From positions 160,001 to 224,000 of the forward strand of contig CAWJMT010000004.1 in the NCBI GenBank assembly GCA_963844035.1: a DNA stretch of 64,000 nucleotides, read 5' to 3'. How positions within the stretch are numbered: the first letter of the stretch is position 1; each line of letters starts with the position of its first letter. The notes under the pieces were generated by a model, which was not told where the DNA came from, did no database searches, and saw only the letters and a list, made by a program, of their open reading frames with translations. This DNA is from an uncultured Gemmatimonadales bacterium. GTDB taxonomy: Bacteria > Gemmatimonadota > Gemmatimonadetes > Gemmatimonadales > GWC2-71-9. Positions 1-11,461 of this stretch are shown one piece after another. The position numbers and the translations under genes were made by a program.

Positions 1-70
1 TGGCGGCCAAGATGCCGATGATCACCACGACGATCAACAGCTCGATCAGTGTAAAGCCCTTGCGGTTCAT
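1..70 (-). CDS. pilA: Type IV pilin, copy 1 (5' end only, runs off the window edge)
   Basis: Reverse complement of 1-70 reads MNRKGFTLIELLIVVVIIGILAA, a class III signal peptide identical to the two complete copies; not in the ORF track. Confidence 0.93.
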   Translation of the reverse strand, partial: MNRKGFTLIELLIVVVIIGILAA

Positions 71-145
71 CTCAGTACCCCATTGAACGTGTGGATCAAC
101 GGCTGTGGAGCAGGTGGCAGAGTGCCAACTCGTGATCCACGTGAA

Positions 146-160
146 GCAAGGGCCATGCTC
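146..160 (-). promoter_or_regulatory. Degenerate sigma54 -24/-12 element for pilin copy 1
   Basis: Minus strand GAGCAT-GGCCC-TTGC, 76 nt from the ATG (same spacing as copies 2 and 3) but AG in place of the conserved GG. Confidence 0.4.
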
Positions 161-294
161 ACGAGGTCGAATTTTGCTAAGGCGTTGCGGGTGGTCGCGA
201 TAGGATACTACGGCGGGGAAAAGCCCTACATCCTGGGCTCTCAAAAGCGGGGTCTTGTGCGACCGATTCCGCTAATTGCGGTACCGAAAGTCTC

Positions 295-7714: not shown

Positions 7715-8411
7715 TCCCCGGCCGGCGGGAAGAGGTTGTAGCGCAGGATGTGAAAGAAGGCGGCGACTCCGTCCTTCCAGGTGATCTTCTTCCCTTCGGC
7801 GTAGGTGCGGCCGCTGTAGGAGATGGGCTGCTCCCAGATGCGCGCCCCGACCTGCGCCAGCCGCGCGGTGATCTCGACCTCGAATCCGAACCGGTTCGCC
7901 GTGAGCGGCAGACGCTTCATCAGGTCCGTGCGCACCAGCTTGTAGCACGTCTCCATGTCGGTGATGTTCAGGTTCGTGAACATGTTGGAGAGGAGGGTGA
8001 GAGCCTTGTTCCCGACGTAGTGCCAGAAGTACAGCACGCGGTGGGGCCCTCCCTGAAAGCGCGATCCGAACACCGCATCGGCCTTTCCGTCCAGGATCGG
8101 CTTCAAGCAGGCCCGGCAGGTCGGCCGGGTCGTACTCGAGGTCCGCGTCCTGGATGACGATCACGTCACCGGTGGCCCGCGCGATCCCCGAGCGGATGGC
8201 GGCCCCCTTGCCGCGGTTCACCGGGTGGCGCTCGAGGTGGTCGATGGTGCGGGCCTCGTGCAGCCGTTCCAGCACCGCCGCCGACCCGTCGCGCGACGCG
8301 TCATCGATCGCGATCACCTCGAGCGAAACCGGAATGGCGCGCACCCGCTGCCACCAGGTGCTCGAGCGTCGCCGCTTCGTTGTAGACGGGGATCAGGACC
8401 GAGAGCTTCAC
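7699..8411 (-). CDS. GT2 polyprenol-phosphate glycosyltransferase (DPM1/GtrB-like); frameshifts near 8345 and 8108
   Basis: [64 protein letters not shown]. Confidence 0.88.
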
Positions 8412-9802
8412 GCCTCCGCCCCCGGTTTGTCGGTCTTCTCACCGCCCTCGTAGCGGGTGAGCTTGCGATACAGGGTCGAGGGATCGATGCCGAGCACTTC
8501 GGCGGCCCTGGTCTTGTTCCCCCCCTCGCTCTGCAGCACCCACGTGATGTACGCCTGCTCCACGACGTCGAGGGTGGGATTCACGTGCGGGCGCTCCGCC
8601 ACGAGCGGCTCGGCACGATGCTCCGTGATCTTCGCGGGCATCGCGGACAGCCCGATCGTGTCCCCTTTGGTGAGCACGCCGGCGCGCTCGAGCGCGTTCT
8701 CCAGCTCGCGCACGTTGCCGGGCCAGTCGTACTGCATGATGGCGTCGAACGCTTCGCGGTCGAGCCGCTTGGGCGGGTCGCCGCGCTCCTGACCGATGCG
8801 TTCGAGGAACGCCGTGACGAAGATTTCGATGTCGTCGCGGCGCTCGCGCAGCGGCGGCAGGTGGATCGCGATCACGTTCAGCCGGTAGTAGAGGTCGGTC
8901 CGGAACCGGCCGCGCTTGATGTCCTCTTCGAGGTCGCGATTGGTCGCGGCCACCACCCGCACGTCGACCGGGATCGCGGCGGTGCCGCCGACCGGGATGG
9001 CTTCCCGTTCCTGGAGCACGCGCAGCAGCTTGACCTGCGTGGCGGGCGACATCTCGCCGATTTCGTCCAGGAAGAACGTGCCGCCCCGCGCGGCGGCGAA
9101 GAGCCCCTGTTTGTCGCGCACCGCGCCGGTGAACGAGCCTTTCTCGTGGCCGAACAGCTCCGACTCGAGCAGGCTTTCGGGCAGCGCGCCGCAGTTGATG
9201 GACAGAAACTGGCCGTCGCTCCGCGCCGACAGCTCGTGGATGTAGCGCGCGATCACTTCCTTACCGGTGCCCGACTCGCCCTGGATCAGCACCGTGCTCT
9301 CGGTGGGGGCCACCTGCTCCACCAGGCGCAGCACTTCCTGGAACGCGCGCGCCTTGCCAAGCGGCTTGACGAGCCCGGAGCGCTCGCGGCGGCGAATCTC
9401 CTGCTTGAGCTGTTTGTTCTCGGCCTTGAGGCGGCGCACCTCGGCCGCCCGCCGGCAGAGCGCCACGATTTCGTCGTTGGAGAAGGGCTTCTGGACGTAG
9501 TGGAACGCCCCCTCGTTCACCGCCTGAATCGCGCTCTGCAGCGAGGCCTGCGCCGTCATGAGAATCACCGGCGTCTCCGGGTCCTGCGCCTTGACCGCGG
9601 CGAGAATCTCGATGCCGGTGACGCCCGGCATCTTGATGTCGGTCAGGACGATGTCGGGAGCCGACGCGGCCAGCTGCTCCAGTCCGGCCTTGCCTCCCTG
9701 GGCGGTTACGACCTCGAACCCCTCGTTCTTGAGAAGAATGCGGAGCGTGTCGAGGATACTTTGCTCGTCGTCAACGATCAGAATCGACGGCTGGGTGCTC
9801 AA
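8408..9802 (-). CDS. pilR: Sigma54-dependent response regulator (PilR/NtrC family)
   Basis: Receiver ILIVDDE...DIKMP, AAA+ GESGTGKE, ESELFGHEKGSFTGA, WPGNVRELEN, Fis-type HTH; pilR name inferred from context. Confidence 0.85.
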   Translation of the reverse strand: MSTQPSILIVDDEQSILDTLRILLKNEGFEVVTAQGGKAGLEQLAASAPDIVLTDIKMPGVTGIEILAAVKAQDPETPVILMTAQASLQSAIQAVNEGAFHYVQKPFSNDEIVALCRRAAEVRRLKAENKQLKQEIRRRERSGLVKPLGKARAFQEVLRLVEQVAPTESTVLIQGESGTGKEVIARYIHELSARSDGQFLSINCGALPESLLESELFGHEKGSFTGAVRDKQGLFAAARGGTFFLDEIGEMSPATQVKLLRVLQEREAIPVGGTAAIPVDVRVVAATNRDLEEDIKRGRFRTDLYYRLNVIAIHLPPLRERRDDIEIFVTAFLERIGQERGDPPKRLDREAFDAIMQYDWPGNVRELENALERAGVLTKGDTIGLSAMPAKITEHRAEPLVAERPHVNPTLDVVEQAYITWVLQSEGGNKTRAAEVLGIDPSTLYRKLTRYEGGEKTDKPGAEA

Positions 9803-11461
9803 GCGGCCTCCTCTTTGCGGCGGGCGGCGGGGAAGTGCACGATGAACGTGGTCCCCCGGCCCGCGGTAGTGTCCACCAAAACCAGGCCGCGGTGCGCCTC
9901 GACCGCGCGCTGCACGATGGCGAGCCCGAGGCCCGTCCCTCCCGTGCGACCGGTGACGAACGGCTCGAACAGCCGGGCCCGAACGGGCTCGGGGATCCCC
10001 GGCCCATTGTCGGTGACCCGCAACGAAACGGGATTGTCGATCCCCGCGCCCCCCGGCAGGTCCTGCAGCGACGAGCGACCGGTCCGCACCACCACCCGGG
10101 CGCCGGGGCCCGTCGCCTGAACGGCGTTCAGGAGCAGGTTCGACACGACCCGGTGCAGCAAGTCCTCGTCGCCCTCCATCGCGGTGACCTCCCCTTCCAG
10201 GGTGATCTGCGCGTCCGCGGGGCAGTCGGGATGCTCCCGCACCAGCCGGATGGCCGCGGCGGCCACCTGATGCAGATCGAGCGGGCGGCATTCGGTCACG
10301 CGCACCCGCGAGAAATCGAGGAACTCGGACAGCAGGCGCGACAGGCGATCGCTTTCCCGGACGATCAATCCCGCCAGGAATTTTTCGTCTGGATTGGTGC
10401 GCGTGGAGCGGGCGAGCTGCTCCACCGATGAGCGAATCGAAGCGAGCGGATTCTTGATCTCGTGCGCCAGGCTCGACGACAGCTCGGCGACCGCCTCGAG
10501 ACGCTGCGCCCGCAGATGCAGCTCGGCGAGCCGTTTGGAATCCGAGATGTCGGTGAAGATCGCCGTCACGCGCGGCGGGCCGTCGGCGTCCAGATCCAGC
10601 GTGGTGGTGGTGACGCCGATCAGAAAGGTCCGGTCCGGCGCGCCGCACGGTCGCCTCGACCCGCATCGCGCGCACGCCGCGCCGCGCCGTTGCGGTGACG
10701 GCGGCCCAGAACTCCGGCGCGATGCGCGCGAATTCCGGCATGATCGGCCGGGAGCGCCAGTCGCGCTCCCGGAACCCAAAGATCTGCTCGGCCGCCGGAT
10801 TGCAGTACAGCAGCACCCCGTCGCCGTCGATGGTCACGATGCCGGTGGGAATGTTGCGGAGCACGTCCGCCGCTTCGAGCCGCACCTGGCGCAGCTCGCC
10901 CGCCAACGCCTCGCGCTCGGCGCCCATGACGGACACGCGGCTCGCGAAATACGCCGTCACCGCTGCCACGGACGCGAACAGCGCCAGCTGGATGGCCGTG
11001 TCCGGGGTCGCGGTCGTGTGGTGGCCGAAGAACACGTCGGCGAAATACACGATGCCTGCGAGCAGCGTCACGAGGCCGGTGCTGGCCGGCGGCATCAGCA
11101 CGGCGCTCACCGCGATCAGCGGCACATATAAGGAGGTGAAGTCGCTCTGCGGCCCCCCGGTGATGTGCACGACCGCGGTGATGAGCGCCGTGTCGAACAG
11201 CACCTGGCTGTACAGGAAGGTCAGACCCGGCCGGCGATTCCGGATATGGGTGTGCCAGTAGGAGGCGATGGTCACGACCACCGCCGCCACGAGCATGAAG
11301 GACGTGACCAGGATGTCCGACGGGGCGACGACTTTGAACTTGAGCGCGGCGCTGAGGTAGATCGCGACCGCGACACACATCCGCCCGACGTAGACGGCGC
11401 GGAGTAGCGTCTGGGGAGTCGGAATCGCCGACGAGGTTGAACGGGCGCCGAGCCAGCGCAC
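9799..11461 (-). CDS. pilS: Membrane sensor histidine kinase with PAS domain (PilS-like); frameshift near 10640
   Basis: N-terminal TMs with HITGG..SDF, PAS region, LAHEIKNPL H-box, DNGPGI and GTGLGL G-boxes. Confidence 0.82.

What the first reader, a model, noticed from the sequence alone, without database searches (positions are those of the whole stretch)
1..11461. Bacterial TMTC-like O-glycosyltransferase triplet wired into a pilin locus: candidate new pilin glycosylation pathway
Seen: pilS-pilR-GT2-GT-C-TMTC(C)-TMTC(B)-TMTC(A) have overlapping or abutting start and stop codons and run directly into the pilin array. All three TMTC-like proteins keep the first-loop DD, YRPL, HPVHxEAV..VGRAEL, LSKE and AERxLY motifs. 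The pilin head is strikingly Thr/Ser-rich (TTTGNTLGTVTTGTGT, TNTNTS). Established: eukaryotic TMTC1-4 O-mannosylate Ser/Thr on cadherin beta-strands using Dol-P-Man made by DPM1; known pilin glycosylation uses PglL/TfpO or TfpW. Inference: the DPM1-like GT2 makes a polyprenol-P-sugar, three TMTC paralogs modify different pilin sites, and the extra GT-C extends or caps the glycan, possibly shielding pili from phages.
Basis: partly seen in the sequence, partly recalled or inferred. Interest (0 to 1): 0.8.

Follow-up and report, generated by a model that had tools for sequence, protein, structure and literature searches.

The report
Pilin-linked TMTC-like sugar-transferase cassette
Between the pilus regulator genes and the main pilus-subunit genes of a Gemmatimonadales bacterium sit a predicted lipid-sugar synthase and four predicted membrane sugar-transferases, three related to animal TMTC enzymes; many relatives keep this layout, so it likely sugar-coats the pilus, much as Pseudomonas TfpW does, with the sugar still unknown.

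Summary
The gene order and motifs are real. Three TMTC/DUF1736-type GT-C+TPR genes, a polyprenol-phosphate-sugar-synthase-like GT2 and a second GT-C lie between pilSR and three pilA copies. Most genes carry single extra bases that related contigs lack, so these are likely assembly errors. The cassette recurs across Gemmatimonadota: 52 complete pilR-pilA slots hold 1-4 TMTC-like genes, 48 with the GT2, which never occurs without a GT-C. In genomes lacking TMTC the slot is usually empty. Best reading (0.65): periplasmic O-glycosylation of PilA from a polyprenol-P-monosaccharide.

Corrections: pilA has its own sigma-54 promoter behind a terminator-like hairpin; one TMTC gene suffices in half the slots; the Ser/Thr-richness argument does not survive a phylogenetic control; mannose is not established. 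It is not a new kind of pathway. TfpW (11 helices, DD loop, C-terminal TPR, next to pilA, O-glycosylates pilin Thr/Ser) is a close precedent, though I could not fetch its sequence to test homology. Bacterial TMTC homologs are already noted in print. The scan flagged this cassette before in nine other notes.

The parts
9799..11461 (-). pilS sensor kinase (PilS-like 6TM, PAS, HisKA, HATPase); one frameshift near 10630 in the assembly
   Evidence: Pfam 6TM_PilS E 7e-9, HisKA, HATPase_c
8408..9802 (-). pilR sigma-54 activator, intact
   Evidence: Pfam REC, Sigma54_activat, HTH_8; ortholog set on a tree
7699..8411 (-). GT2, predicted polyprenol-phosphate sugar synthase (about 235 aa); extra bases near 8349 and 8105
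   Evidence: Glycos_transf_2; 75-91% identical in pieces to intact ortholog L012; that ortholog's best PDB match is the Dol-P-Man synthase 5mlz, E 1e-15; NCBIfam AglJ, PpgS and ArnC all below cut-off
6200..7714 (-). Second, non-TMTC GT-C (about 500 aa, invariant DD, C-terminal alpha/beta domain); start inferred; extra bases near 7682, 7223 and 7174
   Evidence: D33/D34 invariant in 49 of 49 relatives; model of ortholog L016 pLDDT 96; VIA Z 20.1 ALG12, 20.0 Pmt2, 19.6 Pmt4, 18.8 ArnT; indels
4695..6210 (-). TMTC-like C (GT-C + TPR); extra base near 5758
   Evidence: PF08409 17.8 bits, below cut-off; motifs; indel
3203..4705 (-). TMTC-like B, recent paralog of C; extra bases near 4364, 3579 and 3216 (the last makes a false in-frame run into A)
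1680..3206 (-). TMTC-like A, intact, 508 aa; GT-C domain about 1-393, TPR 394-508; member of a clade nearly always last before pilA
   Evidence: AF2 pLDDT 94.4; Foldseek and VIA; tree
1675..1694 (-). Terminator-like hairpin with T run after TMTC-A (weak)
   Evidence: 5 sites found versus 6.4 in shuffles
1525..1539 (-). Sigma-54 -24/-12 box of pilA
   Evidence: 8 of 9 consensus positions; 59 of 76 first pilA genes have one versus 2.3% of shuffles
1038..1454 (-). Major type IV pilin copy 1 (133 aa mature, 4 Cys, head 18 Thr + 7 Ser of 79); predicted acceptor
   Evidence: N_methyl
345..761 (-). Major pilin copy 2 (98% identical to copy 1)
1..70 (-). Start of major pilin copy 3 (continues to G000:C4:159654), followed by a second kinase/regulator pair and minor pilins

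Best explanation
This is an accessory cassette in the pilR-pilA slot of Gemmatimonadota that likely O-glycosylates the major pilin in the periplasm. Shown: the gene identities by fold and motif, the conserved linkage, and the coupling of the GT2 to GT-C genes. Inferred steps: (1) the GT2 loads one sugar from a nucleotide-sugar onto undecaprenyl phosphate at the cytoplasmic face; (2) the lipid-sugar is flipped by an unlinked flippase; (3) the TMTC-like enzymes use the loop-1 aspartate pair, with the Lys-Glu and Glu-Arg phosphate/metal sites, to transfer the sugar to Ser/Thr of membrane-anchored PilA, with the TPR domain recruiting the pilin; (4) the second GT-C adds a further sugar or an independent modification. 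The cassette would be transcribed with pilSR, and PilR would separately drive pilA from its sigma-54 promoter. One TMTC gene is the minimal unit; the A and B/C lineages are old paralogs that may broaden site or sugar coverage. The sugar is probably a hexose or HexNAc rather than D-Araf; mannose is only one option. Masking phage or predator binding is the likely benefit, by analogy with TfpW.
For: Fold: TMTC-A residues 1-393 match AglB (Z 20.2, rmsd 5.4, 319 aligned), STT3, ArnT (18.8) and Pmt4 (18.8), and 394-508 match TPRs. The Asp pair, Arg-Pro, Pro..Glu, Lys and Glu-Arg positions are invariant in 164 of 164 full-length membrane domains (overlapping loci give some duplicates). They correspond to TMTC motifs M1, M2 (in part), M4 and M7. 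Bridging family members pass the PF08409 cut-off (34 and 43 bits versus 27). Linkage: 53 of 77 GTDB loci have a pilin within 3 kb, and 11 more end at a contig edge. Of 52 complete slots, 48 have the GT2 and 36 the second GT-C, and no slot has the GT2 without a GT-C. In 17 scorable TMTC-negative loci, 10 slots are under 1.2 kb. TMTC-A's clade (33 rows, SH-like 99) is the last gene before pilA in 32 rows and an orphan in none. A secondary pilA copy away from pilR also has a TMTC directly upstream (L160). Precedent: TfpW has the same architecture and position and O-glycosylates Thr64/Thr66; in TMEM260 the TPR recruits the acceptor.
Against: There is no biochemical evidence. The family is huge (40,461 clusters at E<=0.001, inflated by TPR matches) and mostly not pilin-linked elsewhere: 73 of 121 genomes of another phylum carry 1-13 copies, but 0 of 29 loci examined had a major-pilin hit, against 38 of 92 Gemmatimonadota copies in a matched window. 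Orphan copies in Gemmatimonadota sit among unrelated genes. The higher Ser/Thr content of linked pilins (0.271, n=54, versus 0.213, n=17) collapses to 2-4 independent contrasts with no trend. pilA is probably not co-transcribed with the cassette. The loci were picked by similarity to TMTC-A, which favours linked copies. The slot also takes unrelated inserts (4 of 17). No GtrA-type flippase was found in this 84%-complete genome.
Confidence: 0.65

Rival explanations
1. The cassette is a broad periplasmic or surface protein O-glycosylation system housed in the pilSR operon for co-regulation; PilA is one of many targets or a minor one.
For: Homologs are widespread and multi-copy without pilin linkage in another phylum. 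Orphan copies interleave with linked ones on the tree (8 changes). Ser/Thr enrichment is not robust.
Against: The position is fixed between pilR and pilA across at least three families and further orders. One clade is last before pilA in 32 of 33 rows. TfpW precedent.
Confidence: 0.2
2. The acceptor is not a protein: the GT2 plus GT-C set decorates lipid A, LPS, a glycolipid or exopolysaccharide, like ArnC/ArnT or GtrB-type systems, and uses a variable slot.
For: ArnT is the top Foldseek hit (E 1e-3) and ArnC is among the GT2 matches. The second GT-C resembles ALG12, AftB and ArnT and occurs without TMTC in L127, L137 and L138. The slot accepts unrelated inserts. This reading is most plausible for the second GT-C alone.
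Against: The three main genes carry the TMTC motif set and a TPR domain; the characterised enzymes with this architecture (TMTC, TMEM260, TfpW) modify proteins. ArnT is also the best template for human TMTCs.
Confidence: 0.1
3. In this strain the cassette is decayed (five frameshifted genes, B fused to A) and inactive.
For: Ten breaks are seen in the assembled locus.
Against: Every break needs only the loss of one extra base; nine coincide with one-base gaps in independent contigs of relatives; pilT and other neighbours are broken too; all catalytic motifs are intact. The contigs are from relatives, not the source sample.
Confidence: 0.04

Closest known systems
TfpW of Pseudomonas aeruginosa/paraeruginosa group IV strains (bioRxiv 10.1101/2020.04.19.049825; parts 1-3 of 4 read)
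   Same: GT-C enzyme with 11 predicted helices, essential DDX in the first periplasmic loop, C-terminal periplasmic TPR, ArnT as best template; encoded next to pilA; uses a polyprenol-P-monosaccharide; O-links sugar to pilin Ser/Thr.
   Different: TfpW lies downstream of pilA and is single; here 1-4 genes lie upstream in the pilSR operon. Its donor is D-Araf made by DprE1/E2; here the donor enzyme is a DPM-synthase-like GT2 and no DprE1-like ALO domain was found in 6 genomes. TfpW also polymerises; here a second GT-C is usually present. Sequence homology was not tested because the sequence could not be fetched.
Animal TMTC1-4 (Pfam PF08409/DUF1736; PMC7801869 sections 6, 7 part 1, 9 part 1 and passages read)
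   Same: GT-C domain plus TPR; Asp pair, Tyr-Arg-Pro, Lys-Glu and Glu-Arg motifs; Atlas feature score 0.92 to a chordate DUF1736 cluster.
   Different: The Ser-His-Lys-Ser part of M2 modelled as contacting mannose is replaced; M3 has Glu instead of Asp in 156 of 164; M5 is Asp-Tyr, not Asp-Trp; the TPR region is much shorter; pilin-linked copies score under the Pfam cut-off; acceptor and sugar are untested.
TMEM260 (bioRxiv 10.64898/2026.03.17.711096, passages read)
   Same: GT-C plus TPR O-mannosyltransferase in which the TPR recruits the acceptor.
   Different: It has an extra Rossmann-like domain; a different family (no match was tested).
TfpO/PilO and PglL pilin oligosaccharyltransferases
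   Same: Pilin O-glycosylation; tfpO is next to pilA.
   Different: They transfer preassembled oligosaccharides; described as unrelated to TfpW; no Pfam match to such families appeared in the slot genes scanned.
Actinobacterial Ppm1/Pmt and ArnC/ArnT pairs (recalled; ArnC and ArnT matches)
   Same: A GT2 makes the polyprenol-P-sugar and a GT-C transfers it outside the cytoplasm.
   Different: No TPR domain, different acceptors, not pilin-linked.

Membership tests
GT-C superfamily | Multi-helix membrane fold of OST/PMT/ArnT type | tested here: met
   VIA Z 17-20 over about 320 residues for TMTC-A; Z up to 20.1 for the second GT-C
GT-C superfamily | Acidic pair in the first external loop | tested here: met
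   164 of 164 TMTC domains; 49 of 49 second GT-Cs; all three window paralogs
TMTC (DUF1736) | Membrane domain followed by TPR repeats | tested here: met
   TPR fold at 394-508, Z about 17; TPR_19 in 22 of 62 members
TMTC (DUF1736) | PF08409 above the curated cut-off of 27 bits | tested here: inconclusive
   Window C and B pieces score 17.8 and 16.9 bits and A has no hit; 4 linked relatives score 18.6-20.1; two unlinked homologs pass with 34 and 43.2; 12 of 62 match at E<=0.01
TMTC (DUF1736) | Motifs M1, M4 (Lys-Glu core) and M7 | tested here: met
TMTC (DUF1736) | Full motif M2 (mannose-contacting part), M3 Asp and M5 Trp as in animals | tested here: not met
   Only Tyr-Arg-Pro of M2 is kept; M3 has Glu in 156 of 164; M5 has Tyr in 164 of 164
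TMTC (DUF1736) | Transfers mannose from a polyprenol-P-Man to protein Ser/Thr | not testable with these tools
   Needs an enzyme assay or glycoproteomics
TfpW-type pilin glycosyltransferase | GT-C with loop-1 DDX and C-terminal TPR encoded adjacent to pilA | tested here: met
TfpW-type pilin glycosyltransferase | Sequence homology to TfpW | tested here: inconclusive
   No TfpW sequence was reachable. An unnamed 646-aa Pseudomonadota TPR cluster scores 0.88 in the Atlas; TfpW is 646 aa; this is a lead only
TfpW-type pilin glycosyltransferase | D-Araf donor pathway (DprE1/DprE2) | tested here: not met
   PF04030 as a DprE1 proxy: 0 of 1 own genome (84% complete) and 0 of 5 complete relatives, while the control rings in Corynebacterium; the proxy may miss divergent enzymes
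TfpW-type pilin glycosyltransferase | Pilin carries O-linked sugar that depends on the enzyme | not testable with these tools
   Needs mass spectrometry and mutants
DPM1/Ppm1 polyprenol-P-mannose synthase | GT2 of the polyprenol-P-sugar synthase group | tested here: met
   Ortholog aligns over residues 1-212 with 5mlz, E 1e-15
DPM1/Ppm1 polyprenol-P-mannose synthase | GDP-mannose specificity | tested here: inconclusive
   AglJ (114 bits of 325), PpgS (76 of 370) and ArnC (51 of 529) are all under cut-off; a weak PF01050 match in 4 of 5 genomes

The most novel reading that the evidence does not exclude
TMTC enzymes, TfpW and this cassette are one family of TPR-guided protein O-glycosyltransferases. 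Gemmatimonadota use it phylum-wide to O-mannosylate (or O-hexosylate) beta-strand Thr/Ser of pilin from undecaprenyl-P-sugar, with paralogs that share a converted core but diverge in loop 1, loop 4 and the TPR to select different sites. This would be the first bacterial substrate for a TMTC-type hexosyltransferase and a simple model for the cadherin-modifying human enzymes.
Probability: 0.3. Interest if true: 0.75.

Novelty: new variant of a known kind. Interest (0 to 1): 0.5.

Why it matters
No TMTC-family sequence or fold match turned up among solved structures, and prokaryotic TMTC homologs are noted in print only as uncharacterised. A 500-residue bacterial homolog with its donor synthase and a small candidate substrate in one locus makes the enzyme mechanism and TPR-based acceptor choice directly testable in E. 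coli. It would also extend TfpW-style pilus glycosylation, known to block phages in Pseudomonas (abstract), to a hexose-type donor and to more than half of a widespread soil phylum (86 of 151 genomes carry the family).

Tried and rejected
TMTC-A with the pilin head in complex prediction gave no answer (score 0.00); it is not used either way. Ser/Thr enrichment as proof: naive p 1e-4 (two frameshifted pilins, L074 and L067, dropped), but only 2 starred (4 total) independent pairs on a PilR tree of 51 rows, with no trend. Shorter linked pilins (122 versus 132 aa) suffer from the same lack of independence. One column (mature 77) is Ser/Thr in 54 of 54 linked pilins, but by eye also in unlinked ones, so it does not discriminate. 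TfpW sequence: not reached through an E. coli locus as a centre, plasmids, phages, a profile search (66) or viral contigs (99); two primary papers were not held. A real B-A fusion was rejected by the one-base gap at 3216 (one contig, depth 3). No GtrA flippase was found (incomplete genome). PDB sequence searches found only TPRs or nothing. A window-wide sigma-54 pattern scan was uninformative. RNA-run contigs (X20) cover parts of the cassette of a relative but do not show transcription. Literature: 0 papers for TMTC+bacterial+pilin+glycosylation and 0 for Gemmatimonad+type IV pil+glycosyltransferase+pilA. Listings showed nothing that links TMTC to pilins or TfpW; none of the 4 papers holds both TfpW and DUF1736. 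Subscription journals and supplements were not covered.
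Full report
Setting. The window is G000:C4:160001-224000 of a 3.47-Mb, 84%-complete genome. Close homologs are labelled Gemmatimonadales or Gemmatimonadota, so I infer that lineage. On the minus strand run pilB, pilT, pilC, then pilS, pilR, five glycosylation-type genes, three pilA copies, a second kinase/regulator pair and minor pilins.

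Observation. Junctions overlap by 4-11 nt. Two things were missed. First, pilS, GT2, the second GT-C, TMTC-C and TMTC-B are frameshifted in the assembly, and B runs in frame into A. Independent contigs of relatives lack exactly one base at 3216, 3579, 4364 and 5758 and at 7174, 7223, 7682, 8105 and 8349. Some of these rest on single low-depth contigs, but each falls on a break, and neighbours such as pilT are broken too, so I read them as assembly errors. Second, pilA is 225 nt away, behind a weak terminator-like hairpin, and has its own sigma-54 box; such a box precedes 59 of 76 first pilA genes versus 2.3% of shuffles (consensus recalled). The cassette therefore likely belongs to the pilSR transcript.

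What the proteins are. TMTC-A (508 aa, intact) folds with pLDDT 94. Residues 1-393 match AglB, STT3, ArnT and Pmt at Z 17-20, and 394-508 are TPR. Among 164 full-length membrane domains (of 193 domain hits; overlapping loci give some duplicates), the loop-1 Asp pair, Arg-Pro, Pro..Glu, Lys and Glu-Arg positions are invariant. These map onto TMTC motifs M1, M2 (part), M4 and M7 of PMC7801869. The mannose-contacting part of M2, the M3 Asp and the M5 Trp differ. Linked copies fall below the PF08409 cut-off, but two unlinked homologs pass it, and the Atlas gives 0.92 to a chordate DUF1736 cluster. JGI already labels several homologs 'protein O-mannosyl-transferase'. The GT2 ortholog best matches the Dol-P-Man synthase 5mlz, but AglJ, PpgS and ArnC models also hit below cut-off, so the sugar is open. 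The second GT-C has an invariant Asp pair, only a remote profile link to the TMTC-like genes (probability 75.5), and a fold tied between ALG12 and Pmt2/Pmt4.

Conservation. Homologs occur in 29 of 40 relatives and 86 of 151 phylum genomes, while 146 of 151 have the pilin. Of 77 GTDB loci (the best of 618 matches, hence biased towards TMTC-A), 53 have a pilin within 3 kb, 11 end at a contig edge and 13 do not. In 52 complete pilR-pilA slots there are 1, 2, 3 or 4 TMTC-like genes in 26, 20, 5 and 1 cases. The GT2 is present in 48, the second GT-C in 36, a SAM methyltransferase in 13 and a further 680-aa PMT_2-like protein in 11, and the GT2 never occurs without a GT-C. I fetched pilin loci from 20 TMTC-negative genomes; 17 could be scored: 10 slots are under 1.2 kb, 4 hold unrelated inserts, and 3 hold the second GT-C with or without the GT2. 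On a tree of 143 domains (39 with unclear context dropped), TMTC-A sits in a clade of 33 in which 32 are the last gene before pilA and none is an orphan. B and C resemble members of another lineage.

Results against. Outside this phylum the family is common but not pilin-linked in what I saw: 73 of 121 genomes around an Acidobacteriota genome carry it (the tally includes one unpublished genome), with 0 of 29 loci showing a major pilin within 1.5 kb, against 38 of 92 for Gemmatimonadota copies. Orphan copies lie among unrelated genes. The window pilin head is 32% Ser+Thr and linked pilins average 27% versus 21%, but this is largely a clade effect. One TMTC gene suffices in half the slots, and B and C are near-identical over most of their core, so a three-site division of labour is not needed. 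The second GT-C can stand without TMTC, which weakens 'extends or caps'.

Mechanism. Inferred: the GT2 makes undecaprenyl-P-sugar; an unlinked flippase (no GtrA found) exposes it; the TMTC-like enzymes transfer it to Ser/Thr of membrane-held PilA, guided by the TPR, as shown for TMEM260; the second GT-C adds or initiates a further sugar; a methyltransferase in some slots may modify the glycan. A DprE1 proxy was not found in 6 genomes, so D-Araf is unlikely. Confidence 0.65.

Comparison. It works like TfpW, a 646-aa GT-C with 11 predicted helices, a loop-1 DDX and a C-terminal TPR, encoded beside pilA, which O-links D-Araf to pilin Thr/Ser and protects against phages (abstract). Membership by sequence could not be tested, and the donor pathway differs. 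Prokaryotic full-length TMTC homologs are noted as uncharacterised in PMC7801869. My searches found no paper linking TMTC to pilins or to TfpW, or describing this cassette; subscription papers and supplements were not seen. Nine earlier notes of this scan describe the same or a similar cassette on other DNA; they gave me the TfpW lead and are not counted as evidence.

Verdict. A real, conserved, accessory pilin-linked glycosylation cassette; a new variant of a known kind; interest 0.5.

Noticed in passing
window 3203-6210: TMTC-C and TMTC-B are 94-98% identical in DNA over gene nt 201-600 and 701-1100 but only 71-73% in nt 1-200 (loop 1) and 601-700 and 61-65% in the TPR part. None of 68 paralog pairs in relatives reaches 80% in any core region. 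This suggests recent duplication or gene conversion sparing the likely acceptor-facing parts, or an assembly effect.
   Followed up: partly
G000:C4:365312, C5:41617, C35:258057; window 1-1454: The genome holds six near-identical major pilin genes (90-98%), three in tandem here and three scattered without a TMTC neighbour, plus a divergent one on C9.
   Followed up: partly
L127, L137, L138: pilR-pilA slots with the second GT-C (one or two copies, with or without the GT2) but no TMTC, suggesting that this family can act alone.
   Followed up: partly
L021:3177-6233, L065:2127-5186: A roughly 1020-aa membrane/spermidine-synthase-like fusion sits in the slot in 2 of 50 loci.
   Followed up: no
L054:2632-4665 and relatives: A third GT-C type of about 680 aa (weak PMT_2, LA_3751-like) in 11 of 52 slots, and a SAM methyltransferase in 13 of 52.
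   Followed up: partly
TMTC-negative loci L127-L146: Pilins without the cassette are longer (mean 132 versus 122 aa mature); a protein loop might replace a glycan shield, but independent contrasts are too few.
   Followed up: partly
P0221: A 1208-aa protein matches TMTC-A at residues 680-1183 and may be a tandem double TMTC fusion.
   Followed up: no
G000:C4:46021-46326: A short TMTC-like fragment (profile positions 79-148, E 6e-19) elsewhere in the genome.
   Followed up: no
L018: Two TMTC-like genes lie inverted within the pilR-pilA slot.
   Followed up: no
window 17342-24520: A very long minus-strand frame (2392 codons, apparently frameshifted) upstream of pilB that by recall resembles SprA-type outer-membrane proteins; not searched.
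   Followed up: no
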